Origin: a virus
Lineage: Duplodnaviria; Caudoviricetes
Reading direction: 5' to 3' (one strand)
IMG/VR virus record: IMGVR_UViG_3300037264_001837
Span: 1 to 53,270 of that record
Length of the DNA stretch: 53,270 bases
This document shows, one piece after another, positions 2,682 to 48,563 of this stretch. Position 1 is the first letter of the stretch. Each line of letters starts with the position of its first letter. The translations under genes and the position numbers were made by a program. Below the pieces are notes generated by a model. That model had not been told where the DNA came from, made no database searches, and worked only from the letters and a program-made list of their open reading frames with translations.

Positions 2682-4644
2682 CCCTCGCCGCGCCTTTGTT
2701 CTCGATTTCGAGACGCGATCAGGCGCGGACCTGACGAAGCTCGGGGCGCATCGCTACGCGGAGGACCCGACGACAGAGCTGGCCTGCGCGGTCTGGTCCC
2801 CCGCGCCAGGCGAGTTCTCCGGGGGCCTGGGCCGGGACCCCGAGTGGCGCGATCGCTTCGTGGCGGGCATTGAGGGCATGGGCCAAGACGGTCGGATCGT
2901 CGCGCACAACGCGGGATTCGAGCGCGCGATCTGGCGCCACTGCATGCCCTGGGTACCGCTGCCGTCGATTGATCGCTGGGACTGCACGGCTGCGCGGGCC
3001 GCGGCGATCGGTCTGCCACGGTCGCTAGAGCACGTCAATCTCGTACTGGGTCTCCAGCAGCAGAAGGACATCGAAGGCCGCAAGCTCATGCTCGCACTCG
3101 CGAAGCCAAGGGCCGGGAAGTTCAAGTCCCCTACGATCCAGGAACTCGAACGACTCCTCGCCTACTGCGAGCAGGACGTGCGGGCCGAGCGCGAGCTGGA
3201 CGGGATCCTGCCGGCCTTGCACCCCCTGGACCGCGCGGCCTGGGAACTCGACATCCTCCTGAACGAGCGCGGCGTCGCGTTCGACCGGGAGCACTGCGAG
3301 AACGCGATCGCCACGATGACGATCCTGCAGACCCGCGAGCTCGCGAGGTTCCAGCAGCTCACCGGCCTGGACAAGCCGAGCAAGCGGGCGAAGTTCCAGG
3401 CGTGGCTGAACGAGCGCGGCGTCCCAGCCCGCGACACCCAGGCTGATACCATGGCCGCGATCGCAGACGGGAAGTGGCCCGCCGGCAAGCCTGCGCCCGT
3501 CGAAGTCCGCGAGGCCTGCGGGATCGTTCGGGCCCTGGGCCGATCGAGCATCACGAAGTACCGGAGCGCGCTCGATCGCCAGTGCCTCGACGGTCGAGCG
3601 CGAGACCTGCTCGTGTTCTGTGGCGCGTCGACCGGGCGCTGGACCGGCTCAGGATTCCAGCCCCAGAACATGCCCCGAGGCAAGATCAAGGACGCCGACG
3701 CGGCAGCCCGGGCCGTCGCGCTCCGGGACCCCGACGCGATCGAGATCCTGTACGGCGACCCCGCGGAGCTGCTCAGCCACTCGGTCCGTGGGATCGTGAT
3801 TGCGGGTCCGGGGCGGACGCTATCGGTCTGCGACTGGTCCAGCGTCGAAGCACGCGTCACGGCCTGGGTGTCCGGAGACCGCGGGCTGCTCGACGACTTT
3901 CGAGCCGGTCGGGATCCCTATGTCTCCATGGCCCGGGTGATCTTTGATCTCGTGCCCGAAGCGATCGTGACTCCGGAGCAGCGCTTCGTCGGCAAGATCG
4001 CCATTCTCGGCCTGGGGTACGGGATGGGAGCCGAAAAGTTCATGGCGACCTGCGCGAAGCAGGGCCGGGCGATTGCCACGGACCTGGCGAAGCACACGGT
4101 CGACGCCTACCGCACGCGCTTCCGGGACTCGATCGTCGCGGCCTGGTACAAGCTCGAGAAGGCCTCGATGGGCGCGACGCGGGACCCGTCAGGCCGTGGA
4201 GTCCAGGCAGCCCGGACCGTCTGGGCGCTCGGGCGCAAGGCCGGGCTGCCGGTCCTGACGTGCCGCCTGCCGTCGGGCCGGAGCCTGCACTACTGGCAGC
4301 CGCGGGTCGCGCCGAAGATGACCCCGTGGGGCGAGCGCCGGCCCGCGCTCTTTCACTGGTCGGTGAACTCCCTGACGCGGGAGTGGTCCGAGAGCGACGC
4401 GTACGGGGGGCTGCTGCTAGAGAACGTCGTGCAGGCGATCTCGCGGGACCTACTTGCGGTCGCGCATCCGGTGATCGAAGCCGCGGGTATGCCGGTGGTC
4501 TTGCATGTCCACGACGAAGTCGTGGCCGAGACCAAATGCGATCGAGCCGCGGAGCTCGCCGTGATCATGAGCACGCCTCCGACATGGGCCGCGGATCTTC
4601 CGCTCGCGGCCGCGGGCTGGAGCGGACGGAGGTACAGGAAGTGA
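2674..4644 (+). CDS. polA: family A DNA polymerase with 3'-5' exonuclease (Leu762 type)
   Basis: ExoI LDFET, ExoII HNAGFE, ExoIII YCEQDV, TGRW, QPQNMPR, motif A DWSSVEAR, motif B KIAILGLGYG, motif C HVHDE. Confidence 0.95.
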   Translation: MPNPRRAFVLDFETRSGADLTKLGAHRYAEDPTTELACAVWSPAPGEFSGGLGRDPEWRDRFVAGIEGMGQDGRIVAHNAGFERAIWRHCMPWVPLPSIDRWDCTAARAAAIGLPRSLEHVNLVLGLQQQKDIEGRKLMLALAKPRAGKFKSPTIQELERLLAYCEQDVRAERELDGILPALHPLDRAAWELDILLNERGVAFDREHCENAIATMTILQTRELARFQQLTGLDKPSKRAKFQAWLNERGVPARDTQADTMAAIADGKWPAGKPAPVEVREACGIVRALGRSSITKYRSALDRQCLDGRARDLLVFCGASTGRWTGSGFQPQNMPRGKIKDADAAARAVALRDPDAIEILYGDPAELLSHSVRGIVIAGPGRTLSVCDWSSVEARVTAWVSGDRGLLDDFRAGRDPYVSMARVIFDLVPEAIVTPEQRFVGKIAILGLGYGMGAEKFMATCAKQGRAIATDLAKHTVDAYRTRFRDSIVAAWYKLEKASMGATRDPSGRGVQAARTVWALGRKAGLPVLTCRLPSGRSLHYWQPRVAPKMTPWGERRPALFHWSVNSLTREWSESDAYGGLLLENVVQAISRDLLAVAHPVIEAAGMPVVLHVHDEVVAETKCDRAAELAVIMSTPPTWAADLPLAAAGWSGRRYRK

Positions 4645-40396: not shown

Positions 40397-42012
40397 GCTC
40401 CCGGGATCGGTGGCGTAGCCGGCGCGGGCGCGGGGGCCGGACTCTGGACGCGGCCAGCCTCGCCGACGATCCCTTCCGCTTGCTCCCGCGTCAACGGGAA
40501 CCCCGTGACCAAGATGCCGACCGCGGAGCTTCGGGGCACCTCGCCGGTCACGACTTGCGCGACCAGGTCCACCATCGCCTGGACCTGCGCGCCGTTGAGC
40601 GCCTGCGCCGGATCCTTGGCGGTCTCCGGTACGGGCAAGCGAGCGCCCTCGATCTGACCGGGCTCGGCCGAAGCGCTCGGTAGGGCAGCGGCCGGCGGGA
40701 CAGCGATCGGGTCCTCGTCTTCCTGCGGGAGCCCAACCACGTCGCGGATCATGGCCTCGGTCGCCTTGCCGCCCGGGATCAGGAACCCGGCCATGGTCAG
40801 CTTCGCGACGGCCTCCGCGAACTGCGCGAGGTCCCGCTGGTCGAGGTCGCCTGGCTCGAACCAGCACGCCTCGGCCAGGTCCCAACCGTTCACCCGATAG
40901 ATCAGCGGGATCAGCACGCGATTGAGCACGGCCGCGACGGCCTTCAGCCAGGCCCCGAGCACAATCCCGAACAGCGAGGTCTTGGAGTCGGCCAACGCGT
41001 AGGAGCCGACCTGCGCCTGGCCCAACATGATGAAATCCGCGAGCATCGTGCGGGCGATCGCGTGGTCGTAGCGCCCGATCACCGCGGTGGTGTCGTGCTG
41101 CCGGCGAGCCATCGTACCGAGCAGCGAGAACTTGACCTGCGGGTTCCCCTTGTCGTCGTAGGTCTGCGGGATCCCGATGCCAGCCTGCTCGTCGAGCTTG
41201 ACCCGCTTGAGCAGCTCCTCCCACGCCGCGACCGTGGCCTTCTGGCCGTCCGTCGCGTCCGGCGTGGCCCAGGCCGCGGGGTACTCCACGGTCGGGATGC
41301 CGGCGAGGTCCCGCTCGATGCCGATCGCTTCGGACTCCTCGACGTGTTTCTTGAAGTACCAGGAGCGGTAGGACCGGCGAAGCGCCGAGACCCCCTCGGG
41401 GTTGTTCTTACGGCTGGTCGTCCGGAAGTGCAGCAGCTTCTCGATCGGCAGGAACACATCGGTCGAGCCCTTGGCGAACGGGTCGCGTTGCCAGGCCCCG
41501 AGCAACCGATCTTGGTCGTCCCACTCCCACCGGTCGATCGTGTCCTGCGCCCGGGGCGACAGCGACCGAATGCCGACCAGCCCGTCCGAGTACTTCGACT
41601 TCCGCGCCGGGTCGGTCTCTTCGGGTCCGACCCGGTACTTGAGCACGATCTCCGAGAGCTCGAAGCCGAACTGCACCATGGTCAGGGCCTCAGCGATGAA
41701 GTCCTCCCAGGTCTCGTCCATGTCCTCGGTCATCGAGCGCACGGCCTCGGCCTGGTCTTTGTGCTCGGGGAGCTCGCTGAAGGGGTTGACCAGCCAGTCC
41801 ACATTGCGCAAGGTCATCTCGACCGCGAAGAGGGTCGCGCCCACGGTCGCGTCGTTGTCCCCCATCTCGCGGTAGGTCTTCATCCCCCGCAGGCCCTGGA
41901 GCTTCTGCAATCGCTCCTCGGAGATGCGACCGCTGTACTTCCGGAGGCCGGTGGTGCCGATCGGTGGGGCTGCCGGATCGAGAGCCTGGGTGGGGGGCGT
42001 AGGATCCGCCAT
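40393..42012 (-). CDS. portal protein (DUF935 / Mu gp29-like)
   Basis: IG.TGL, Y.EM..ND, FGF...E.V.K, NPEG.S.LR..YR.WYFKK..E..E.IG.ERDL.G.P, GSYALA. Confidence 0.92.
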   Translation of the reverse strand: MADPTPPTQALDPAAPPIGTTGLRKYSGRISEERLQKLQGLRGMKTYREMGDNDATVGATLFAVEMTLRNVDWLVNPFSELPEHKDQAEAVRSMTEDMDETWEDFIAEALTMVQFGFELSEIVLKYRVGPEETDPARKSKYSDGLVGIRSLSPRAQDTIDRWEWDDQDRLLGAWQRDPFAKGSTDVFLPIEKLLHFRTTSRKNNPEGVSALRRSYRSWYFKKHVEESEAIGIERDLAGIPTVEYPAAWATPDATDGQKATVAAWEELLKRVKLDEQAGIGIPQTYDDKGNPQVKFSLLGTMARRQHDTTAVIGRYDHAIARTMLADFIMLGQAQVGSYALADSKTSLFGIVLGAWLKAVAAVLNRVLIPLIYRVNGWDLAEACWFEPGDLDQRDLAQFAEAVAKLTMAGFLIPGGKATEAMIRDVVGLPQEDEDPIAVPPAAALPSASAEPGQIEGARLPVPETAKDPAQALNGAQVQAMVDLVAQVVTGEVPRSSAVGILVTGFPLTREQAEGIVGEAGRVQSPAPAPAPATPPIPGA

Positions 42013-42033
42013 GCCCACAGCCTACACCGGCGG

Positions 42034-43503
42034 TCAGGGGACCGGCGCGGGCCGGGTGATGCTCAGCGGCGGGGCTACCGCCGACCCCGACACGGAGCGT
42101 TCCCGGATCCAGCGAAGCACCTGGCTGAGCGCGTCGACCCGGTCCTTTCGCGGCGAGCCCGGGAACGTCGTGACCTCCGCGACGAAGTCCGCGACCCACG
42201 GCGCGGATTCCGGGAGCCAGAGCTTGCCGGCCTGGATCAGCGGTGTCTCGACCTCGAGCCGCGTGACCTTGTCGCGCTGCCCGGGATCAATCGCGATGAC
42301 CGGAAGCCGGGACCCCCGCCGGAGGTACTGGATGATCCCCTGGCCCGAGTCGCGGTCCTCGATCAGGAGCGCGGACGGATTCCAGTGCTCCGCGAGTTCT
42401 CGGACCTTGGGCAGGAGGTCGGGGATCTCGAGCCGCTGAGCGAACACGTCCCAGACCTCGAGCCGGTCCGGGAACTCCGCGATCGTGATGCACGCCTGGT
42501 TCGCGCTCGACTCCTTGGCCTTCGACGCGCAGTCCCAGGACTGGATGATCCGGATCGGATCCGCGCCGCGGGACGTGTAGCGATTCGACAGCCAGGCGCG
42601 CTTGATCATCGCGCCCTCGCGAGGCACCGGGTTCTGCTGATAGATCGACTCCCACGACGCGGGGTCCATGGCTGCCTTCTGCTCGAGCAGGAACTCCAGC
42701 GGCTTGAGCTCCGGGAACAGGGCCTCGCCGCGCTTGCGGTGCGGCTCGTCCTCGATCGCGATCGCGGGGTAGCTCACCACGTCGATCGTCGGATCGTCCG
42801 CGATCATGTGTCCTACGAGGTCCGCGAGGTTCCACCGGGTCATGATGACGATCAGCCCGTAGGCCTTCGAGAAACGCGTCCGGAACACGTCGCGGAACCA
42901 GTCCCATACCCGCGCCTGGATGATCGTGCTGTCCGCGGTCTGGCGGTCCTTGACCGGATCGTCGATCATCCCGAGGTCGAGCGGCTCTCCGGTCAGCGGC
43001 CCCTCGACTGTCGTGTTCCGGAACGAGCCGATCTGACCCACCAACTCAAGGTGCGTCGAGTTGCGACGCGGCTTGCCCGCTTGGGTGACTACGTTCTCAT
43101 CGCAGAGCCGCGTCGCGGGGAACACGCGCCGATAGGTCTCGGAGTCGATCAGGCGCTGGAGCCGGAGGTTCGCCCGGGTGCCGAGGTAGTCGGAGTAGCT
43201 CGCGAAGCCTGAGCGCATCCCGGGGCACCGGCCGAGACACCAGCCGAAGAAGTCCGTCACGATCATCGACTTGCCGTGCTGCGACGGCGCCGTGAGTACC
43301 AGGGCCGGCCGCTCGCCCGCGAGCATGCGCGCGAGGAACCGTTCGAGCCGCTCGGCCGCGTCGCGCTGCCACCAGCCGAGGACGTAGTCCGGATTGACAA
43401 GCCGGAAGAAGTCCCAGTAGTGCCGGCGCGCGAGCTCCTCGTCGACGACCCGCGAGTCGAGCAGCTCAAGGTCGATCCCCGCGCCGCGCTCAGCCCTTGC
43501 CAC
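42034..43503 (-). CDS. terL: terminase large subunit
   Basis: Walker A APSQHGKS, Walker B IDDPVKD, MTRW..DL.G, YQQ.P, SWD.A, IED..SG, D.VDA.SQ. Confidence 0.95.
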   Translation of the reverse strand: MARAERGAGIDLELLDSRVVDEELARRHYWDFFRLVNPDYVLGWWQRDAAERLERFLARMLAGERPALVLTAPSQHGKSMIVTDFFGWCLGRCPGMRSGFASYSDYLGTRANLRLQRLIDSETYRRVFPATRLCDENVVTQAGKPRRNSTHLELVGQIGSFRNTTVEGPLTGEPLDLGMIDDPVKDRQTADSTIIQARVWDWFRDVFRTRFSKAYGLIVIMTRWNLADLVGHMIADDPTIDVVSYPAIAIEDEPHRKRGEALFPELKPLEFLLEQKAAMDPASWESIYQQNPVPREGAMIKRAWLSNRYTSRGADPIRIIQSWDCASKAKESSANQACITIAEFPDRLEVWDVFAQRLEIPDLLPKVRELAEHWNPSALLIEDRDSGQGIIQYLRRGSRLPVIAIDPGQRDKVTRLEVETPLIQAGKLWLPESAPWVADFVAEVTTFPGSPRKDRVDALSQVLRWIRERSVSGSAVAPPLSITRPAPVP

Positions 43504-44002
43504 GGGGCTTCGTCCGGCCCTGGATCGCGCGCAGGGCGAGCAGGTCTTCGTCCGAGAGCCCGCTCAGGTCCACAGCCACCGGGCGCTCGGGGTTCCCGCT
43601 CAGCTCGAGGTGGTGCCGCTCGCGGTACTCGGGGACGACGCGTCGGGCTTCGAGCTCGACGAGCCGGGGAAAGTAGAGCGTCTTGACGCCAACGATCGCG
43701 CCCTTCTCGATGATCGGCTCCTGCTTCCCCTGCCACGCGTACTCCTGGACCTTGCCGATCGTCTCTTCCTGGAACGCCTCCCAGGCCTCGCGGCACATCG
43801 CGTCGAACTCGGGATCGGCCTTGCGCTTGATCTGCACCGCCCGCTTGGAGCAGCCGACCGACGCGGCCGCGACCCCGGGCCGGCCGTGCTTGCGCATCTC
43901 CACGCAGAAGCGCTCCATGCGCTCGCGGGTCCACCGAACTTGCTTGGCGGTCGTCGGGGGCCCAAGAATGTCTTCGTTCGGGTCAGGCACGCGCCGAGCC
44001 AT
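43490..44002 (-). CDS. terS: terminase small subunit
   Basis: HTH, D.EF.....EA, PEYRE, E.SG....P, LSDE.L; directly upstream of and overlapping terL. Confidence 0.85.
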   Translation of the reverse strand: MARRVPDPNEDILGPPTTAKQVRWTRERMERFCVEMRKHGRPGVAAASVGCSKRAVQIKRKADPEFDAMCREAWEAFQEETIGKVQEYAWQGKQEPIIEKGAIVGVKTLYFPRLVELEARRVVPEYRERHHLELSGNPERPVAVDLSGLSDEDLLALRAIQGRTKPRGKG

Positions 44003-44005
44003 GGC

Positions 44006-44818
44006 TCACCCCAGGATGTCGTCGTGGAGCGCCTGGGTCGGAGTTGAACCGCCCTCTCCCACCTGGTCGGTGGGTGCCTCGCCACTAGGCTTCAGGCGCT
44101 CGCCTCGATACATCCTAGCACCCAGCTCGCCAATCCTGGCGAAGGGGATGATGGGCACAGTGAGCCGCTCCTGGACTCCCGCCCGCAGGAACCGGACGTA
44201 GCGGAGTTGAAATCCAGACAGGGGAGCAGCCCCCGCGGCCTTCGCTAGAGCCCCCACGCTCAACGGCGACGTGCCGCAGGTCATGCGGATCTCTTCTCGC
44301 ATACGCGTCGCACGGTTCAGCTCAAGGTTTATCTTGTGCGTCACTCTCCCATCGGGGAAGCGTAGAAGTTGCCGGTTTTTCTTGATCCCCGTGAGGACGA
44401 ATCCCGACGCCCGGTAGATCGTCCCATCTCCACATTGGGCGGCATCGGCGAACGACACTACCCATTCCAGACTCGGGTACTGCTTCGACAAGAGCCTGAA
44501 CGCGACAGCGAGCGCCCGGGACTCGGAGTTCCTAGGGAGCGCATTTGAGAAAGCCATGCGGTTGAGCTCGCAGAAGCCATCCCACTTCGTATCCCGCACC
44601 AACCAAGCCATGAACTCTTTGCGCATCGAGGGGCCGAACTGCATGACCCCCTCGAGCCGCCCGTCCCAGACCACCCCAAGATGAATGTTCGAGTTGTTCA
44701 CGTACCGGCCGCTGTAGTGCAGCTTGGAACAGAGCCGACGCGCCACGTCGGCTCGGATTGGCTCGACCCGCAGCGCCTTGCAATCGCTACTCGGCGAGGA
44801 AAGCGGAACAGATCCCAT
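44006..44818 (-). CDS. mom: Mom-family (GNAT) adenine hypermodification enzyme
   Basis: HYS, GV.QFG, ELNRM, PRNSESR, VSFAD, G.GTIYRASGF..TG; start codon uncertain. Confidence 0.85.
   Translation of the reverse strand: MGSVPLSSPSSDCKALRVEPIRADVARRLCSKLHYSGRYVNNSNIHLGVVWDGRLEGVMQFGPSMRKEFMAWLVRDTKWDGFCELNRMAFSNALPRNSESRALAVAFRLLSKQYPSLEWVVSFADAAQCGDGTIYRASGFVLTGIKKNRQLLRFPDGRVTHKINLELNRATRMREEIRMTCGTSPLSVGALAKAAGAAPLSGFQLRYVRFLRAGVQERLTVPIIPFARIGELGARMYRGERLKPSGEAPTDQVGEGGSTPTQALHDDILG
44025..44099 (-). tRNA. non-canonical tRNA-Gly(ACC)-like element embedded in the mom coding sequence
   Basis: GCGCCTG AA GCCT AGTGGCG AGGC A CCCAC CGACCAG GTGGG AGAG GGCGG TTCAACT CCGACC CAGGCGC T CCA: perfect 7-bp acceptor, 4-bp D and 5-bp anticodon stems, T-loop, U73 and CCA. 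Confidence 0.85.
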
Positions 44819-45545
44819 AGAGCGCGTTCCCGTTCTTGTTCTCGTTGACTTCCGAGACACCGAGCCCCCGCTCGATGGCAAGCCGCAACGCGGATTCAAC
44901 CGAATCTTTCTGCGACGCATGGACGGTGAAACTCATCAGGTGGAAGTCTTTCGTGGGCGCGGCTATCTGCTCTGGGAGCTGACCCCGTAGACCCGCGAGC
45001 GCGTCGGACTGCCGCTGCGCGACCTGCTCGATCTCGACTCCCTGGAACCTGAGCATCGGCGCGATGGCCGCGAGCTGTAGCCGGTGCAGCTCCGCGAACT
45101 TGGCCGCGCTCTCCTCGGTCACGTCGCCGTGGTGCGAGCTCGCGAGCATGACTAGTTCCGCGGCCTCGGTCTCGCTCTCGGCCTGGATCTCCGAGACCGG
45201 GATGCGCGCGGGGATCACGTGGCCTTGCTCTTCCAGCCACTCCAGCGACGGCACGCGCCCCGCGCCGTCGATCACGTAGCGGTGGCCCTCCCACACGAAC
45301 ACCGGGAACGCGAAGCCCTTGCCAGTGCGGTCGAGGATCGCGCCACCCAGGCGCTCGAGGTCCCTGGGCTTGCGGCTCTTGAGCGTGTTGCGCTCGTAGC
45401 CCCGGAGCTCGCCCCAGGGGATCGTAGGCCCGCCAGCGGCCACCCGGACCGTGATGCACGGCCCGTCGCAAGGCGGCTTCGCGACGCACTTTCGCGCGCG
45501 AGAAGGCCCGAGGATGTCGTCGTCCCCCTGCACGCCTCGGCTCAT
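44787..45545 (-). CDS. ParB/Srx-like N-terminal domain protein
   Basis: GFAFPVFVW, VIDGAGR (DGHxR-like), C-terminal F..MSFT.H..Q...V..AL and NENKNGNAL. Confidence 0.7.
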   Translation of the reverse strand: MSRGVQGDDDILGPSRARKCVAKPPCDGPCITVRVAAGGPTIPWGELRGYERNTLKSRKPRDLERLGGAILDRTGKGFAFPVFVWEGHRYVIDGAGRVPSLEWLEEQGHVIPARIPVSEIQAESETEAAELVMLASSHHGDVTEESAAKFAELHRLQLAAIAPMLRFQGVEIEQVAQRQSDALAGLRGQLPEQIAAPTKDFHLMSFTVHASQKDSVESALRLAIERGLGVSEVNENKNGNALYGICSAFLAE

Positions 45546-45565
45546 CGGTCTGTCTCGCTCTCGGT

Positions 45566-45637
45566 GTTCACGCCGGAGGCCTTCTCGTTCACGGCTCAGG
45601 CCCTGCTGTTCAAGATCTCCGGCCCACCGTTCACGGC
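45566..45637. repeat. four GTTCA(C/A) boxes at exact 21-bp period upstream of the late operon
   Basis: GTTCA at 45566, 45587, 45608 and 45629; two copies extend to CGTTCACGGC. Confidence 0.75.
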
Positions 45638-45642
45638 CAAGC

Positions 45643-45804
45643 CTACTGCTGCGAGCCAGTGAACCCGCCCCGCTCGGGCTGCAGGGGCCCGCTCCGGACC
45701 GTAGGACCCGAGGACCGCGGCGCGAGAGCCCAGAGCAGCAACACGAGCCCCACGACAGCCAACGTGGGGATCAGAGCGGCCTTGAATCGATCCCGGGTCG
45801 TCAC
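45643..45804 (-). CDS. small single-TM protein
   Basis: GTGA coupling; ALIPTLAVVGLVLLLWALA. Confidence 0.5.
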   Translation of the reverse strand: MTTRDRFKAALIPTLAVVGLVLLLWALAPRSSGPTVRSGPLQPERGGFTGSQQ

Positions 45805-45986
45805 GCGAGCGGGTCCAGAACCAGCGGGGCAACCGCCACCCGACGGAGGTACTCGGCCGCGGAGATCCCACGAGCAGCCGCGGCACGGTCGAGGGCCTGC
45901 CGCTCCACGGTCGCGAGCCGGACCGCGACGCAAGGGCTCCCCCGCCCCCGGGGAGTCGTCGGCCTGCCACGTCGCCTCGGATCCAT
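45801..45986 (-). CDS. ribbon-helix-helix (CopG/Arc/MobC-like) regulator
   Basis: RGRP, VAVRL...E...L..AA...G.S.AEYLR. Confidence 0.75.
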   Translation of the reverse strand: MDPRRRGRPTTPRGRGSPCVAVRLATVERQALDRAAAARGISAAEYLRRVAVAPLVLDPLA

Positions 45987-45992
45987 ACCGCC

Positions 45993-46022
45993 AGGATATA
46001 CCTTCGGGATTACCGCCGTCAA
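45993..46022 (-). promoter_or_regulatory. sigma70-type promoter predicting a leaderless RHH mRNA
   Basis: TTGACG-18 nt-TATCCT, then 6 nt to the ATG at 45986. Confidence 0.55.
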
Positions 46023-46103
46023 CAAACCGCGCCCCGCGGGCCCGCATACACTTCCACACTGGCCCACAAGACGTATAGCCGCGCAAACCCGCACCAGAAG
46101 CCC

Positions 46104-46142
46104 GTACTCTATACTACTATATATTCTATATGTATGTAGTAC
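46104..46142. other. AT-rich imperfect palindrome (candidate origin or packaging site)
   Basis: GTACTCTATACTACTATATATTCTATATGTATGTAGTAC, 10 of 39 nt G+C, in the divergent intergenic region. Confidence 0.5.
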
Positions 46143-46253
46143 GCACATAAGGGGGGTATACGCGTTATGGGGGGAAGTGGGACGGCGTAGAAAGTCGGAA
46201 AAGTATCGCGCCGCCGCGCTTGGTGCGCGCGACAAAAGCCGAAGTATAAAATC

Positions 46254-46283
46254 TTGCCGTTACTAAATCGGGCGAGGTACTAT
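46254..46283 (+). promoter_or_regulatory. sigma70-type promoter for the primase-helicase
   Basis: TTGCCG-18 nt-TACTAT upstream of a GAGAGG RBS and ATG 46308. Confidence 0.5.
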
Positions 46284-46307
46284 GCGAGCCCCGAGAGGAC
46301 ACCGCCC

Positions 46308-48563
46308 ATGCCAGACCCGGCCGACCTCAATCCGTACCACCGCGCGGGCTACGAGCTGATCCCCCTGAGCCCCCCGGACGGCCCCGGGAGCTCCGCGGGA
46401 AAGGCGCCCTGCGAACGCCGGTGGCGGACCAACCGACCGCTCAACCGAGAGCTCGCCGCCGCGCACATGGAGGCCGGCCGGAACGTCGGGGTGCGGCTCC
46501 GCGCGGGAGAGCTCGTGATCGACGTGGACCCACGGAACTTCGCCCCTGGGGTCGACTCGCTCGCGACCCTAGCCGCGCTCGTAGGGCTCGACCCTGCCGC
46601 GTGCCCGGCGGTCACGACCGGCGGCGGGGGCCGGCACCTCTACCTGCGCAAACCCCCCGCGGTCACCCTCGTCGACTCACTGCCCGCGCATCCCGGGGTC
46701 GAGTTCAAGAGCCTGGGCCGGCAGGTCGTAGCCGCGGGATCCGTCCATCAGACGGGGCGGCGGTACGCCTGGGAGGACTGGCCTCCGCTCGAGCACGCGC
46801 CCGAGGCCCCGCCCGCGCTACTCGCGCTCGCGGTCCGTCCCCCGCCCGCGGTCGAGGGGGGCGGGATGCTGACTCCCGAGGCCGTCGCGGAGTGCCTTGG
46901 TCAGCTCCCGATCGCGAATTTCCGGGACCATGACCAGTGGCTCGCGATCATGATGGCCTGCCACCATGCCTCCGGCGGGGAAGCGCGTGCTGAGTTCGTC
47001 CAGTGGGCCGCGAGCGACCCGCGCTACGCGGCTCGCGCATGGGAGACCGGCAGACGCTGGGACTCGCTCCGGCCGGGGAAGGGTGTGACGGTCAGGACGC
47101 TCTTCCGGGCTGTACTGGACGCCGGAGGCCGGCTACCCCCCGAGGTCGGAGCCGAAGACGACTTCATCGGCCCACCCGCGGAAGCGGACAAGCAGGAGCA
47201 GCGAGCCGAAGGAGTCAGCCTGCTCGAGCAGATGAACGGGGAGTACTGCACCGTCAATGACGGCGGGAAGTTCCGCGTGTTCTCTCGCCAGGTCGATCCG
47301 GTCCTCAAGCGTGAGTGCTACAGCCGGCATACTAAGGCCGACTTCGAGGCGCTCTGCATGCACCGGCAGGTTGAGGTGCCAGGCCCCAATGGCAGGAGTC
47401 GCGTGACCCCCGTAGGGGAGTGGTGGCTCAAGCACCCTAGACACCGGCACTACCGCGGTGTCACCTGCGACCCCGAAGGCTCGCCCCCGGAGCACTTGAA
47501 TCTCTGGTCTGGGTGGGGAGTCGAGCCCGGGGACGGTGATTGGTCCGCGCTCCGCGACTTGATCGGCGAGGTTCTCTGCGACGGGGAGGAGCAGAACTTC
47601 CGGTACGTCCTGGACTGGATCGCGAACATGGTCCAGCGACCCGCGTCTCCCGCCGAGGCCGCGATCTGTTTCAAGGGCGACCTGGGCGTAGGGAAGGGGA
47701 CGCTCGGACGCGCGCTCTTGCGGATCGCGGGTCGGCACGGACTTCCGGTCTCGAGCCCGGCCCATATCGTCGGGCGCTTCAACGCGCACCTGCGCGACTG
47801 CGTGTTTCTCTTCGCAGACGAGGCCTTCTGGGGCGGCGACAAGCAGGGCGAGGGCGCGCTGAAGGCGTTGATCACAGAGCCCCTGGTCTCCTACGAGCGC
47901 AAGGGCCACGACCTCGAGATGGGCCGGAACATGATCCACGTCATGATGGCGTCGAACAACGAGTGGGTGATCCCCGCGACACTCGGGGAGCGCCGGTTCT
48001 TGATGTGCGAGGCGAATACGGCAAAGGCGAAATCCGACGGGGCGCGCTTCGAGCGGGTCAACGCGCAGCTGAGGTCAGGAGGTCTTGGGGCCATGCTGCG
48101 GGACATGCTCGTCCGCGACATCCGCGGGTGGCATCCGCGGAACTCGATCCCGGTGACGCGCGCGTTGGTCGACCAGATCATCCAGGGCCTCGATCATGTC
48201 GGGACCTGGTGGTACAAGATCCTGCAGGAGGGCCGCATCCCAGGCGTAGCCGACTGGAGTACACGAATCGCGGTCGCGACGCAGCTCCTCCAGGACGACT
48301 ACGCGGAGACGTGCGACCAGACCGCGTACCGGGGCCGGCGCAGCATCGAGAGCGTCCTGGGGCGCAGGCTGGACGCGCTCGTACCGGGCCGGCGGAAGTT
48401 CCAGATGCTGGTCCCTGAGGGGTCGGGGCTCAGGACCGATTCGCATGGGCGCGCTGTCCACTACGAGCTGCCTTCACTCGCCGACTGCCGTGCAGCATTC
48501 GAGGCGCGGCTGGGCACAACGATCGCGTGGCCCCAGCCGGATCCGGACGAGCTGCTCCGGTGA
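46308..48563 (+). CDS. Prim-Pol + PriCT-2 + SF3 (D5/DUF5906-like) primase-helicase
   Basis: GKAP, NVGV, VIDVDPRN, TGGGGRHLY, W....MA.H, Walker A GDLGVGKG, FADE, SNN, ERRF. Confidence 0.93.
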   Translation: MPDPADLNPYHRAGYELIPLSPPDGPGSSAGKAPCERRWRTNRPLNRELAAAHMEAGRNVGVRLRAGELVIDVDPRNFAPGVDSLATLAALVGLDPAACPAVTTGGGGRHLYLRKPPAVTLVDSLPAHPGVEFKSLGRQVVAAGSVHQTGRRYAWEDWPPLEHAPEAPPALLALAVRPPPAVEGGGMLTPEAVAECLGQLPIANFRDHDQWLAIMMACHHASGGEARAEFVQWAASDPRYAARAWETGRRWDSLRPGKGVTVRTLFRAVLDAGGRLPPEVGAEDDFIGPPAEADKQEQRAEGVSLLEQMNGEYCTVNDGGKFRVFSRQVDPVLKRECYSRHTKADFEALCMHRQVEVPGPNGRSRVTPVGEWWLKHPRHRHYRGVTCDPEGSPPEHLNLWSGWGVEPGDGDWSALRDLIGEVLCDGEEQNFRYVLDWIANMVQRPASPAEAAICFKGDLGVGKGTLGRALLRIAGRHGLPVSSPAHIVGRFNAHLRDCVFLFADEAFWGGDKQGEGALKALITEPLVSYERKGHDLEMGRNMIHVMMASNNEWVIPATLGERRFLMCEANTAKAKSDGARFERVNAQLRSGGLGAMLRDMLVRDIRGWHPRNSIPVTRALVDQIIQGLDHVGTWWYKILQEGRIPGVADWSTRIAVATQLLQDDYAETCDQTAYRGRRSIESVLGRRLDALVPGRRKFQMLVPEGSGLRTDSHGRAVHYELPSLADCRAAFEARLGTTIAWPQPDPDELLR

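What the first reader, a model, noticed from the sequence alone, without database searches (positions are those of the whole stretch)
44025..44099. A complete tRNA-Gly-like cloverleaf is hidden inside the 3' coding end of the Mom-like DNA hypermodification gene: an enzyme that may carry its own aminoacyl donor
SEEN: the minus strand 44099->44025 (sense to mom) reads GCGCCTG-AA-GCCT-AGTGGCG-AGGC-A-CCCAC-CGACCAG-GTGGG-AGAG-GGCGG-TTCAACT-CCGACC-CAGGCGC-T-CCA (75 nt). It has a perfect 7-bp acceptor stem, a D-arm with GG, a 5-bp anticodon stem, a TTCAA T-loop and an encoded CCA. The same bases encode the Mom C-terminal peptide RLKPSGEAPTDQVGEGGSTPTQALH. The bacterial GlyRS identity elements are all present (G1-C72, C2-G71, G3-C70, C35, C36, U73; anticodon ACC). 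KNOWN (from recall, to be verified): Mu Mom is a GNAT-fold enzyme that makes N6-carbamoylmethyl-adenine, and recent work reports Gly-tRNA(Gly) as the glycine donor. INFERENCE: the gene is dual-coding and supplies a dedicated tRNA-Gly co-substrate for DNA glycylation. The GGSxPT peptide I recall at the termini of Mom homologues may simply be the translated T-arm. I know of no description of this arrangement.
Basis: partly seen in the sequence, partly recalled or inferred. Interest (0 to 1): 0.95.

Follow-up and report, generated by a model that had tools for sequence, protein, structure and literature searches.

The report
Glycine tRNA-like gene inside mom
The tail end of this phage's DNA-modification gene (mom) overlaps a conserved, glycine-tRNA-like RNA gene that accompanies mom genes in many other phages and prophages and probably delivers the glycine that the enzyme attaches to DNA.

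Summary
Window 44099->44025 (-) folds as a cloverleaf. It is the only hit in the 53-kb phage to a covariance model built from 16 other phages (81.3 bits, E 3e-20).

The same 67-77 nt element lies at or next to Mom-family genes in 80 of 80 viral loci and 73 of 80 prophage loci examined.

All four helices covary: 98% of cells paired against 35-41% when partners are slid, and 14 of 22 pairs show double changes.

In 152 distinct copies the invariant bases are G1-C72, C2-G71, C35, C36 and U73, the published bacterial GlyRS determinants.

The peptide is a by-product. The Mom ORF crosses the element in all three frames, or stops inside or before it. In a cultured Psychrobacter phage two copies are intergenic. 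Codon periodicity vanishes inside the element, and the encoded tail is predicted disordered.

The anticodon loop has shrunk to 4-5 nt and lacks U33, so this is not a decoding tRNA.

Best reading (0.6): a dedicated, non-decoding glycyl carrier for Mom, which is known to use Gly-tRNAGly. Charging and donor use are untested. I found no description in print.

The parts
44025..44099 (-). Mom-associated tRNA-Gly-like RNA element, 75 nt, full-cloverleaf ('long') class
   Evidence: Sequence. Cloverleaf MFE. R1 hit of 81.3 bits, E 3.4e-20, the only hit in the window. ARAGORN at relaxed threshold calls tRNA-Gly(acc).
44093..44099 (-). Acceptor stem, 5' strand (positions 1-7). G1, C2 and G3 pair with 44029-44035.
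   Evidence: 7 of 7 Watson-Crick pairs. The pairs covary across homologues: 5 of 7 show double changes in A3. G1-C72 and C2-G71 are invariant in 152 of 152 copies.
44076..44090 (-). D arm: 4-bp stem with a 7-nt loop containing GG
   Evidence: 3 of 4 stem pairs show double changes in A3. The loop sequence is not conserved in the family.
44058..44074 (-). Anticodon-like arm: 6-bp stem with a 5-nt loop (44064-44068). The invariant CC (C35, C36) lies at 44065-44066. There is no U33.
   Evidence: folds 6 bp. The 32-38 pair covaries (CG 13, UA 2, AU 1). C35 is present in 148 of 152 copies and C36 in 150 of 152. Positions 33 and 34 are free.
44036..44053 (-). T arm: 5-bp stem, 7-nt loop starting TTCAA, and a bulged A at 44038 in the 3' strand
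   Evidence: Every stem pair shows compensatory variants somewhere in the 81 tails. The bulge is A in 123 and T in 18 of 152 copies.
44029..44035 (-). Acceptor stem, 3' strand (positions 66-72)
44025..44028 (-). Discriminator U73 (44028) and encoded CCA (44025-44027)
   Evidence: T73 in 151 of 152 copies. C74, C75 and A76 in 139, 137 and 143 of 152.
44006..44818 (-). mom-family gene (270 aa if it starts at ATG 44818; the start is uncertain). It reads through the RNA element, and its stop is 17 nt after the CCA.
   Evidence: ORF list. The database gene product P0001 is 270 aa and 100% identical. Pfam Mom PF25680 E 8.9e-46. PHROG 1384 Mom-like E 2e-44.
44141..44773 (-). Mom (GNAT-type) domain as matched by Pfam: residues 5-215 of the 259-aa translation from 44785
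   Evidence: The AlphaFold2 model is confident over this part.
44021..44110 (-). C-terminal tail of the Mom ORF (residues 226-255 of 259), which is the translated RNA element. Predicted disordered.
   Evidence: pLDDT is below 50 over 226-255 with no secondary structure. There is no codon periodicity in the element. Homologues read it in three frames.
43490..44002 (-). Terminase small subunit gene. It starts 23 nt after the CCA.
   Evidence: PHROG 4044 E 1.1e-21. ORF list.
42034..43503 (-). Terminase large subunit gene
   Evidence: Pfam Terminase_6C. PHROG 38 E 1.2e-77.
44787..45545 (-). Upstream 252-aa gene of unknown family. It sits where ParB-like genes lie in related phages.
   Evidence: No Pfam hit above cut-off and no PHROG hit. 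ParB-Mom-terS synteny is seen in Psychrobacter phage vB_PmaS_Y8A.

Best explanation
The element is a separate RNA gene: a tRNA-Gly-derived, non-decoding 'mini-tRNA' genetically coupled to Mom-family DNA glycyl-transferases. In this GC-rich phage the mom ORF simply runs on through it.

Proposed working:
1. The late transcript carrying mom, the element and terS is cut by the host tRNA-maturation enzymes. RNase P cuts at G1, and 3' trimming reaches the encoded CCA.
2. Host GlyRS glycylates the ~75-nt RNA through the retained determinants G1-C72, C2-G71, U73, C35 and C36.
3. Mom takes the glycyl group from its 3' end and transfers it to N6 of adenine in dsDNA. There it rearranges to N6-carbamoylmethyl-adenine.
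4. The contracted 4-5-nt anticodon loop without U33, and the bulged T stem, keep the RNA out of translation. The phage thus owns a private glycine donor that neither drains nor competes with the translational Gly-tRNA pool.

Shown here: a conserved structured RNA, its tRNA-Gly ancestry, its identity-element pattern, its exclusive linkage to Mom, and its independence from the reading frame.

Inferred: processing, charging, donor use, and evasion of EF-Tu and the ribosome.
For: 1. Structure under selection.
- A3 (16 ungapped 76-nt copies): 98.0% of cells paired, against 34.7-40.9% with partners slid and 76.2% in shuffles (0 of 500 reach the observed value). 14 of 22 pairs show changes on both sides.
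- A6 (70 distinct prophage copies, none in the seed): 97.8% against 41-48%, with 18 of 22 pairs (this alignment is fitted to the model).
- The short class gives 16 of 18 predicted pairs with compensatory changes.

2. Ubiquity.
- R1 hits the 3' end of mom in 81 of 81 sources (window plus 80 viral loci).
- It hits 73 of 80 prophage loci from many phyla.

3. Reverse linkage.
- A scan of viral contigs with a 17-base T-arm/acceptor pattern returned 80 listed loci.
- 58 have a Mom domain ending 46-240 nt upstream.
- 15 have a Mom-like domain starting within 221 nt downstream, and 1 has Mom 1461 nt away.
- 6 have none, and 4 of those lie at contig ends.
- 22 of 22 re-checked loci carry a full-length element.

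4. Identity elements.
- In 152 distinct copies: G1 152, C2 152, G71 152, C72 152, T73 151, C35 148, C36 150.
- Positions 33 and 34 are free.
- PMC10464925 (passages including the abstract) names G1C72, C2G71, C35, C36 and U73 as the determinants of eubacterial tRNAGly.

5. tRNA-Gly ancestry.
- R1 run on three host genomes picks genuine tRNA-Gly genes as 5 of 8 examined non-Mom hits.
- Two copies in L139 pass Rfam tRNA RF00005 at 42.8 and 42.7 bits.
- At relaxed threshold 18 of 19 sense-strand ARAGORN calls are tRNA-Gly.

6. It behaves like a trans-acting gene.
- Tandem copies occur in L013, L082, L134, L139 and L159.
- Its position relative to mom varies.
- It is intergenic in a cultured phage.

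7. Biochemistry in print.
- Mom transfers glycine from Gly-tRNAGly to dsDNA. It rejects Gly-tRNAAla and seems to read the acceptor end (PMC13219725, sections 10 and 14).

8. Precedent.
- Staphylococcal 'non-proteogenic' tRNAGly species bind EF-Tu and the ribosome poorly. The transferase FmhB prefers them (PMC7826273 abstract).
- U73 also protects Gly-tRNAGly from the deacylase DTD (PMC6097841 abstract).

9. The phage has no GlyRS, class-II synthetase core or CCA-adding enzyme, so host enzymes would have to act.
Against: - There is no expression, processing or charging evidence of any kind.
- Mu Mom works with all three host tRNAGly isoacceptors, and Mu has no element (best R1 score 9.0 bits). 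A private donor is therefore not a general requirement.
- GlyRS reads C35 and C36 in a normal 7-nt loop. [quoted passage not shown]
- The 4-5-nt loop, A8 in place of U8 (A 90 and T 57 of 152), non-conserved D and T loop contacts, and the short class without a D arm might all prevent charging.
- In 71 of 81 loci ribosomes translate through the element. That would compete with folding.
- An RNase P cut would leave mom mRNA without a stop codon.
- The claim that the T-stem bulge weakens EF-Tu binding rests on recalled knowledge of EF-Tu contacts. It was not tested here.
Confidence: 0.6

Rival explanations
1. A cis-acting tRNA-like structure on the mRNA. It would serve as an RNase P/RNase E processing site that separates the mom message from the terminase message, or as a binding site through which Mom (a tRNA-binding enzyme) limits its own toxic expression. 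It would never be charged.
For: - It lies inside the operon between mom and terS in this window and in many loci.
- There is no terminator-like site between it and terS.
- A cut at G1 would leave mom mRNA without a stop codon, which is a plausible brake on a toxic enzyme (inference).
- Mom is said to recognise the tRNA acceptor end.
Against: - Position relative to mom is not fixed. It is upstream in 15 of 80 loci, about 0.8-1.3 kb downstream in several Bacillota prophages, and tandem in five loci. This fits a trans-acting product better.
- C35 and C36 in the distal loop are invariant (148 and 150 of 152). They are GlyRS determinants that RNase P has no need for.
- The CCA is conserved.
Confidence: 0.15
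2. A tRNA-Gly mimic with another target. It might be an uncharged or charged decoy that manipulates host glycine-tRNA sensing or a tRNA-directed host defence, rather than feeding Mom.
For: The element keeps the GlyRS determinants but has lost decoding features. Phages are known to carry tRNAs for counter-defence (recalled, not tested).
Against: - Linkage is to Mom specifically: 74 of 80 pattern matches have a Mom domain on the same strand.
- Mu-type Moms without the element exist, but I found few elements clearly without Mom: 2 loci with at least 700 nt of upstream flank and no Mom.
- No other gene is consistently co-linked.
Confidence: 0.1
3. An ordinary phage-encoded decoding tRNA-Gly that supplements translation.
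For: ARAGORN at default calls L008 and L102 tRNA-Gly(tcc). Two L139 copies pass RF00005.
Against: - The 32-38 positions pair, leaving 4-5-nt loops.
- Position 33 is T in only 49 of 152 copies, and position 34 is A in 67 of 152.
- ARAGORN at default calls tRNA-Gly in 1 of 80 viral loci and 1 of 80 genome loci.
- The window copy fails RF00005.
Confidence: 0.04
4. The conserved entity is the peptide: a C-terminal motif of Mom. The cloverleaf would be a side effect of Gly-Gly ... Pro-Thr codons.
For: The motif is nearly invariant in 28 aligned homologues. Gly and Pro/Thr codons are partly complementary (seen directly in the sequence).
Against: - Three reading frames are used (41, 18 and 12 of 81). 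The ORF stops inside the element in 9 and before it in 1.
- Both copies are intergenic in Psychrobacter phage vB_PmaS_Y8A.
- Entropy by codon position is 0.74/0.76/0.89 in the element against 0.68/0.40/1.52 in the Mom domain.
- The tail has pLDDT below 50.
- The acceptor, D and anticodon stems covary where the peptide is not conserved.
Confidence: 0.02
5. A DNA-level site (attP copy of a host tRNA gene, or a pac site for the adjacent terminase), or a decaying tRNA pseudogene, or a chance fold.
For: Phages integrate into tRNA genes and carry tRNA fragments (established knowledge). The element abuts terS here.
Against: - The copies share derived features that are absent from the host tRNA-Gly genes aligned alongside them: a bulged T stem and a contracted loop, plus A8 in the window-type copies.
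- The element lies inside prophages next to mom, not at their ends, and in a phage with direct terminal repeats.
- In other lineages it sits next to Mom without a terminase. In L217 it lies between a DNA methylase-like ORF and Mom.
- Covariation across many phyla excludes decay and chance. R1 gives E 3e-20.
Confidence: 0.02

Closest known systems
Non-proteogenic tRNAGly isoacceptors of Staphylococcus used by FmhB/FemA/FemB (GNAT-fold Fem transferases)
   Same: Both are dedicated glycine carriers for an aminoacyl-tRNA-dependent transferase outside translation. The staphylococcal species interact poorly with EF-Tu and the ribosome and are preferred by the transferase through D and T arm features (PMC7826273 abstract). 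Here too the departures lie in the D, T and anticodon regions, while the GlyRS determinants are kept.
   Different: [quoted passage not shown] The element here is viral, linked to a DNA-modifying enzyme, has a 4-5-nt loop and a bulged T stem, and often lies inside the enzyme's ORF. Function here is inferred, not shown.
Phage Mu Mom with host Gly-tRNAGly (Silva et al., Nat Commun 2026, PMC13219725)
   Same: Same enzyme family (Pfam PF25680, E 8.9e-46; 36-42% identity to Mu/D108 Mom). The same co-substrate chemistry is presumed.
   Different: Mu, pAEv1818 and JD024 have no element (at most 11.1 bits). The paper describes scavenging of host tRNA and does not contain the words 'tRNA-like', 'cloverleaf' or 'C-terminal' in its main text. 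Its supplements could not be read.
Canonical bacterial tRNA-Gly
   Same: Cloverleaf; G1-C72, C2-G71, U73, C35, C36 and CCA. R1 cross-hits host tRNA-Gly genes at 35.6-50.7 bits. See also the alignment A7.
   Different: In the element, U33 is not conserved, the anticodon loop is 4-5 nt, an extra bulged base sits in the T stem, and the G18/G19 and T54-Psi55-C56 contacts are not conserved. U8 is replaced by A in the window's copy and in 90 of 152 copies. The window copy fails both RF00005 and default ARAGORN.
Ordinary phage-encoded tRNA genes
   Same: A virus-borne, tRNA-derived gene, sometimes in tandem, matured presumably by host enzymes.
   Different: Those genes decode codons and are found by tRNA finders. 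This one is not found: 'No tRNA genes were identified' in Psychrobacter phage vB_PmaS_Y8A (PMC10434257 passages). Yet R1 finds two copies there.
3' tRNA-like structures of plant RNA viruses (e.g. TYMV, BMV; recalled, not tested here)
   Same: Viral RNA elements that mimic tRNA and are aminoacylated by host synthetases.
   Different: Those are 3'-terminal parts of genomic RNAs with pseudoknotted acceptor arms. This element is a DNA-phage gene with a plain 7-bp acceptor stem, and it sits inside a transcript.
D-arm-lacking mitochondrial tRNAs (recalled)
   Same: The short class (67-70 nt) has acceptor, T and anticodon arms but no D arm.
   Different: No relation of descent is implied. The window's own copy has a D arm.

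Membership tests
tRNA (Rfam RF00005 / ARAGORN definition) | Scores above the family's gathering threshold, or is called by a standard tRNA finder | tested here: not met
   Window: RF00005 is not listed at E<=10, and only tRNA-Sec at 19.3 bits against a gathering score of 47. ARAGORN default gives 0 genes. In the family, only the 2 L139 copies among the 10 elements of the 8 loci scanned pass RF00005.
tRNA (Rfam RF00005 / ARAGORN definition) | Four-helix cloverleaf with a 7-bp acceptor stem and a discriminator plus CCA end | tested here: met
   MFE fold. Covariation in all four helices.
tRNA (Rfam RF00005 / ARAGORN definition) | 7-nt anticodon loop with U33; U8 | tested here: not met
   The window has A8, G at 33, and a pairing 32-38. 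In the family, position 33 is T in 49 of 152 copies and position 8 is A in 90 and T in 57 of 152.
Bacterial tRNA-Gly identity set (GlyRS substrates) | G1-C72, C2-G71, U73, C35 and C36 present | tested here: met
   All are present in the window. Counts in 152 distinct copies: 152, 152, 151, 148 and 150. The determinant list is from PMC10464925.
Bacterial tRNA-Gly identity set (GlyRS substrates) | Is actually glycylated by GlyRS | not testable with these tools
   This needs an aminoacylation assay. The contracted loop and altered elbow could interfere (passage on the L-shape requirement).
Staphylococcal non-proteogenic tRNAGly | Member of the staphylococcal lineage; weak EF-Tu and ribosome binding; preferred by the Fem transferase | not tested
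   The lineage is stated to be restricted to staphylococci. The hosts here are other phyla. The element may work like these tRNAs but is not filed as a member. EF-Tu binding is not testable here.
Mom family (Pfam PF25680), for the overlapping protein gene | Profile match above cut-off over the whole domain | tested here: met
   156.5 bits against a cut-off of 27.1, profile positions 2-200 of 202. PHROG 1384.
Mom family (Pfam PF25680), for the overlapping protein gene | Makes N6-carbamoylmethyl-adenine from Gly-tRNAGly | not testable with these tools
   This is shown for Mu Mom and two metagenomic homologues in PMC13219725, not for this protein.
Dual-coding (overlapping functional peptide and RNA) | The peptide encoded by the RNA gene is itself under selection | tested here: not met
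   Three frames, with stops inside or before the element. No codon periodicity. Disordered tail. Intergenic copies.

The most novel reading that the evidence does not exclude
A large, cross-phylum clade of phages and prophages carries a private, non-decoding glycyl-carrier RNA. It is a tRNA-Gly stripped of its decoding features but keeping every GlyRS determinant, and its sole job is to hand glycine to the neighbouring Mom enzyme for DNA hypermodification. The enzyme gene and its RNA co-substrate gene are packed so tightly that the enzyme's ORF usually runs through the RNA gene. That would make the 'conserved C-terminal motif' of these Mom proteins an RNA gene read as protein. If so, this would be the first virus-encoded non-proteinogenic tRNA and the first RNA cofactor gene dedicated to a DNA-modifying enzyme.
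Probability: 0.55. Interest if true: 0.95.

Novelty: new variant of a known kind. Interest (0 to 1): 0.88.

Why it matters
Mom's use of Gly-tRNAGly was published in 2026 as scavenging of a host resource (PMC13219725). The data here suggest that most close relatives of this window's Mom bring their own tRNA-Gly-like RNA. Five consequences would follow.

1. **How the modification is supplied.** DNA hypermodification could be insulated from translation.
2. **A natural minimal GlyRS substrate.** The element keeps the determinants while the loop is contracted and, in one class, the D arm is missing.
3. **Annotation.** tRNA finders miss these genes, and gene callers extend Mom ORFs through them. A cultured phage reported to have no tRNA genes has two copies.
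4. **Protein family models.** The apparent conserved C-terminal motif in these Mom proteins would be explained as an RNA gene read as protein.
5. **Engineering.** An orthogonal enzyme plus carrier-RNA cassette would be of interest for DNA modification.

A cultured system exists for direct tests: Psychrobacter phage vB_PmaS_Y8A.

Tried and rejected
**Standard tRNA finders**
- ARAGORN at default genes in the window.
- It calls tRNA-Gly in 1 of 80 viral loci (L008).
- In 80 genome loci it calls tRNA-Gly in 1 (L102) and makes 9 'tRNA-???' calls with odd loops.
- It in L082-L085.
- At 80% thresholds there were 39 calls on 81 tails. 19 were on the sense strand (18 Gly, 1 undetermined) and 20 on the antisense strand with mixed identities, which I treat as noise.

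**Rfam**
- There is no dedicated family.
- The window gives only a sub-threshold tRNA-Sec hit.
- Eight other loci give only RF00005 for L139 (two copies) and an unrelated riboswitch.

**Alignment problems**
- MAFFT alignment A2 of mixed-length copies misplaced the D stem of the 75-nt copies, and L004 and L068.
- I dropped A2 and used only the 16 ungapped 76-nt copies (A3) for the unbiased pair count and for the model.

**Mom-linkage script**
- My first script used a profile that included the tail, so it matched the translated element itself. This was circular and I discarded it.
- I repeated the test with a profile cut at the end of the domain.
- An earlier tblastn version undercounted, giving 45 of 80.

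**Expression**
- No RNA holder was listed. One DNA run, possibly the source sample, holds the stretch.

**Other rejected readings**
- Chance fold, attP or pac site, pseudogene and functional peptide were each considered and rejected. See the rival explanations.
- A phage-encoded GlyRS or CCA-adding enzyme was not found.
- The upstream 252-aa protein could not be assigned to ParB or any other family.

**Literature**
- Seven full-text searches were run. I also ran word searches inside PMC13219725 and PMC7824862.
- None gave any mention of a tRNA-like element in or next to mom genes.
- The bioRxiv version 10.1101/2023.03.24.534169 was seen only as a search listing (0 occurrences of 'tRNA-like').
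The homologue alignments in the supplement of PMC13219725 could show the C-terminal motif and could not be checked.

**Limits of the survey**
- Only the best 80 of at least 583 viral and 80 of 139 genome relatives were examined.
- Only 80 listed of at least 120 pattern matches were examined.
- 7 of 80 genome loci showed no element within the 1.5-kb flanks. One of them is a 744-nt contig.
- The second fold job, fold search, complex prediction and the protein-atlas search were not used.
Full report
**1. What is in the window**

The window is a complete 53,270-bp virus record with direct terminal repeats, at about 64-71% G+C. On the minus strand the gene order is:
- a 252-aa gene of no known family (44787-45545);
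- a Mom-family gene (44006-44818; Pfam PF25680 E 8.9e-46 over residues 5-215 of the 259 translated from 44785; PHROG 1384);
- the terminase small subunit (43490-44002);
- the terminase large subunit (42034-43503).

On their own they fold into a cloverleaf (MFE -36.1 kcal/mol, z -2.75, 4 of 200 shuffles as good). They lie beyond the Pfam domain and encode residues ~229-253 of the ORF. The ORF stops 17 nt after the CCA, and terS starts 23 nt after it.

Standard tools do not call the element. ARAGORN finds 0 tRNAs in the window. Rfam lists only tRNA-Sec at 19.3 bits, E 0.37.

**2. The same element in relatives**

Protein search found 7,315 relatives among 8,000 scored candidates. In 28 aligned proteins a variable ~16-residue linker follows the last domain motif. 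After the linker comes a nearly invariant Gly-Gly-x-x-Pro ... Leu motif.

I fetched the DNA of the best 80 viral loci (of 583 confirmed). Every one of the 81 tails (80 loci plus the window; 61 distinct elements) has:
- a 7-of-7 paired acceptor stem;
- a T arm of the form GGCGG-N7-CCGACC;
- T73;
- CCA directly after T73 in 76 of 81.

Lengths fall into two classes. The 'long' class is 73-77 nt with a D arm (27 of 81, the window included). The 'short' class is 67-70 nt. In the short class the D arm is replaced by a short linker and an extended anticodon arm.

**3. Structure is under selection**

On 16 ungapped 76-nt copies (A3; the window is not included):
- 98.0% of 352 cells form standard pairs, against 34.7-40.9% when the 3' partners are slid by 1-3 columns and 76.2% in shuffles (0 of 500 reach the observed value);
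- 14 of 22 pairs show changes on both sides.

The 32-38 positions also covary (CG 13, UA 2, AU 1). The anticodon stem is therefore really 6 bp with a 5-nt loop.

A covariance model from these 16 copies (R1) gave these results:
- It hits the window at exactly 44025-44099 (-) with 81.3 bits, E 3.4e-20. This is its only hit in the window.
- It hits every one of the 80 viral loci at the 3' end of mom.
- L013 has a second, tandem copy. One stray 25-bit hit lies elsewhere.

In 80 prophage loci from bacterial genomes and MAGs, R1 finds the element in 70 loci (73 hits). With filters off it finds it in 3 more. The hosts include Bradyrhizobium, Micavibrio, Limnohabitans, Gallibacterium, Clostridia, Lachnospiraceae, Coriobacteriia, Planctomycetota, Verrucomicrobia and others.

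On that independent set 97.8% of cells pair, against 41-48% slid, and 18 of 22 pairs show double changes. The alignment is fitted to the model, which favours the structure.

**4. The RNA is conserved, not the peptide**

- The Mom ORF crosses the T arm in frame 0 in 41 of 81, frame 2 in 18 and frame 1 in 12. It stops inside the element in 9 and before it in 1. The three frames give three unrelated 'conserved' tails.
- In the cultured Psychrobacter phage vB_PmaS_Y8A the Mom-like CDS ends at locus position 2145. Two tandem elements lie at 2153-2220 and 2225-2293, before terS at 2311.
- In several Bacillota prophages the element lies about 0.8-1.3 kb downstream of mom.
- In a divergent, AT-richer lineage it lies immediately upstream of a Mom-like gene.
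- Column entropy by codon position is 0.68/0.40/1.52 in the last 30 codons of the Mom domain. It is 0.74/0.76/0.89 in the element in the same 16 phages.
- An AlphaFold2 model with the 28-sequence alignment is confident for the domain (mean pLDDT 82.4). It gives pLDDT below 50 and no secondary structure for residues 226-255.

**5. Linkage tested from the RNA side**

I scanned the viral collection with the 17 specified bases of the T arm and acceptor end. The scan returned at least 120 stretches, of which 80 were listed. With a Mom-domain profile cut before the tail:
- 58 of 80 have a Mom domain ending 46-240 nt upstream on the same strand;
- 15 have a Mom-like domain starting within 221 nt downstream;
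- 1 has Mom 1,461 nt upstream;
- 6 have none, and 4 of these have less than 200 nt of upstream sequence.

All 22 loci in the last three groups carry a full-length element (37.5-83.4 bits).

Mu itself, Aeromonas phage pAEv1818 and Pseudomonas phage JD024 have Mom at 33-42% identity to the window's protein. They have no element (best 9.0-11.1 bits with filters off).

**6. What kind of RNA**

In 152 distinct copies the counts are:
- G1 152, C2 152, G71 152, C72 152, T73 151;
- C35 148, C36 150;
- C74 139, C75 137, A76 143;
- position 3-70 mostly G-C but variable;
- position 33: T 49, G 49, A 35, C 16;
- position 34: T 68, A 67, G 9, C 7;
- position 8: A 90, T 57;
- the T-stem bulge: A 123, T 18.

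PMC10464925 names 'G1C72 and C2G71 base pairs, C35, C36 and U73' as the defined determinants of eubacterial tRNAGly. It also shows that the C35G, C36A and U73A substitutions impair charging (passages). The invariant positions of the element are that list and little else outside the T arm.

R1 was run on three host genomes. Besides the Mom-linked copies, the other eight hits I examined comprise five genuine tRNA-Gly genes (35.6-50.7 bits), one tRNA-Glu, one tRNA-Cys and one place with no tRNA call. One further place was not examined.

Two Clostridia-type copies (L139) pass Rfam's tRNA threshold. An alignment with host tRNA-Gly genes shows the shared frame and the derived differences.

Some Clostridia-type copies lack an encoded CCA. 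This is common for tRNA genes of Firmicutes (recalled knowledge).

The phage encodes no GlyRS alpha subunit, no class-II synthetase core and no CCA-adding enzyme.

**7. Mechanism**

Published work shows the following (PMC13219725: abstract, sections 10 and 14):
- Mu Mom transfers glycine from Gly-tRNAGly to N6 of adenine in dsDNA, followed by rearrangement to the carbamoylmethyl form.
- It accepts all three E. coli isoacceptors.
- It rejects Gly-tRNAAla.
- It probably reads the acceptor end.

I therefore propose that the element is matured like a tRNA, glycylated by host GlyRS, and used by the adjacent Mom. Its loss of decoding features keeps it out of translation.

The precedent is the staphylococcal non-proteogenic tRNAGly set for FmhB/FemA/FemB. 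These tRNAs bind EF-Tu and the ribosome poorly (PMC7826273 abstract). U73 additionally protects Gly-tRNAGly from the deacylase DTD, 'augmented by EF-Tu' (PMC6097841 abstract). That would matter for a carrier that EF-Tu does not protect.

These last steps are inference. Section 1 gives the failure to find RNA data, and the evidence against is listed in the best explanation.

The points that most favour a trans-acting carrier over a cis-regulatory site are:
- the tandem copies;
- the variable placement around mom;
- the invariance of the distal CC and of the 3' CCA.

**8. Novelty**

Seven literature searches and word searches inside the two most relevant papers found no description of a tRNA-like gene in or beside mom. 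The paper on the cultured Psychrobacter phage states that no tRNA genes were identified. Rfam 15 has no family for it.

I rate this a new variant of a known kind. Dedicated non-translational tRNAGly carriers are known in staphylococci. New here are the viral origin, the coupling to a DNA-modifying enzyme, the contracted anticodon loop, and the habitual overlap with the enzyme's ORF.

**9. Verdict**

Function as glycine donor is likely (0.6) but unproven. Interest 0.88.

Noticed in passing
L082 (Psychrobacter phage vB_PmaS_Y8A, OQ059336.1) 2153-2220 and 2225-2293: Two tandem copies of the element lie in the 165-nt gap between the Mom-like CDS and terS of a cultured phage whose paper reports no tRNA genes. 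According to that paper the phage also has a second, Mu-like Mom (ORF69).
   Followed up: partly
L013 2283-2351 and 2353-2420; L134, L139, L159 (two copies each): Tandem duplications of the element occur. In L013 the two copies are 1 nt apart and both lie inside the Mom ORF, giving a repeated peptide motif.
   Followed up: partly
L217 2404-2479 (also L207, L216, L225, L229, L239, L241, L242, L244): In an AT-richer lineage the element lies 2-22 nt upstream of a divergent Mom-like domain (26-33% identity by tblastn). In L217 it lies between a DNA-methylase-like ORF and a large primase/helicase-like ORF. These copies look more canonical (T8, GG in the D loop, TTC T loop).
   Followed up: partly
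L120, L121, L124, L125, L127, L144, L154, L156, L160, L165 (element at ~2900-3580): In several Bacillota prophages the element is about 0.8-1.3 kb downstream of the Mom gene rather than abutting it. The intervening gene(s) were not examined. These copies have a 4-nt loop ending in CC and a bulged T.
   Followed up: no
L120 782-882 (-): An azaaromatic (yjdF) riboswitch aptamer, RF01764, at 76.3 bits, lies upstream of the Mom locus of a Bacillota MAG.
   Followed up: no
L073 249-335 (-): A stray R1 hit of 25.1 bits on the opposite strand, about 1.2 kb upstream of mom. ARAGORN calls nothing there.
   Followed up: no
window 44787-45545 (-): The 252-aa gene just upstream of mom overlaps the likely mom start (ATG 44818). 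It has no Pfam or PHROG family. Related phages have a ParB/sulfiredoxin-domain gene in this position, and ParB-like genes also sit beside Mom-like genes in phiEf11 and Microbacterium phage Blett (annotations).
   Followed up: partly
G001:C1:7752281-7752350 (+) (L292) and G001:C1:6417943-6418016 (-): Two further R1 hits lie in the Bradyrhizobium sp. TZ2 chromosome (44.4 and 42.8 bits). The first has no ARAGORN tRNA and may be a third Mom-linked copy. The second was not fetched.
   Followed up: no
window 41062-43212 (+): A 716-aa open frame runs antisense to the terminase genes. Such frames are typical of GC-rich DNA, and I do not take it for a gene.
   Followed up: no
window 45993-46022 (-): This is the only sigma-70-like promoter match in 43400-46400 (9 of 12). 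It lies upstream of the 252-aa gene and may start the operon that carries mom, the element and the terminase genes. It is a consensus match only.
   Followed up: no
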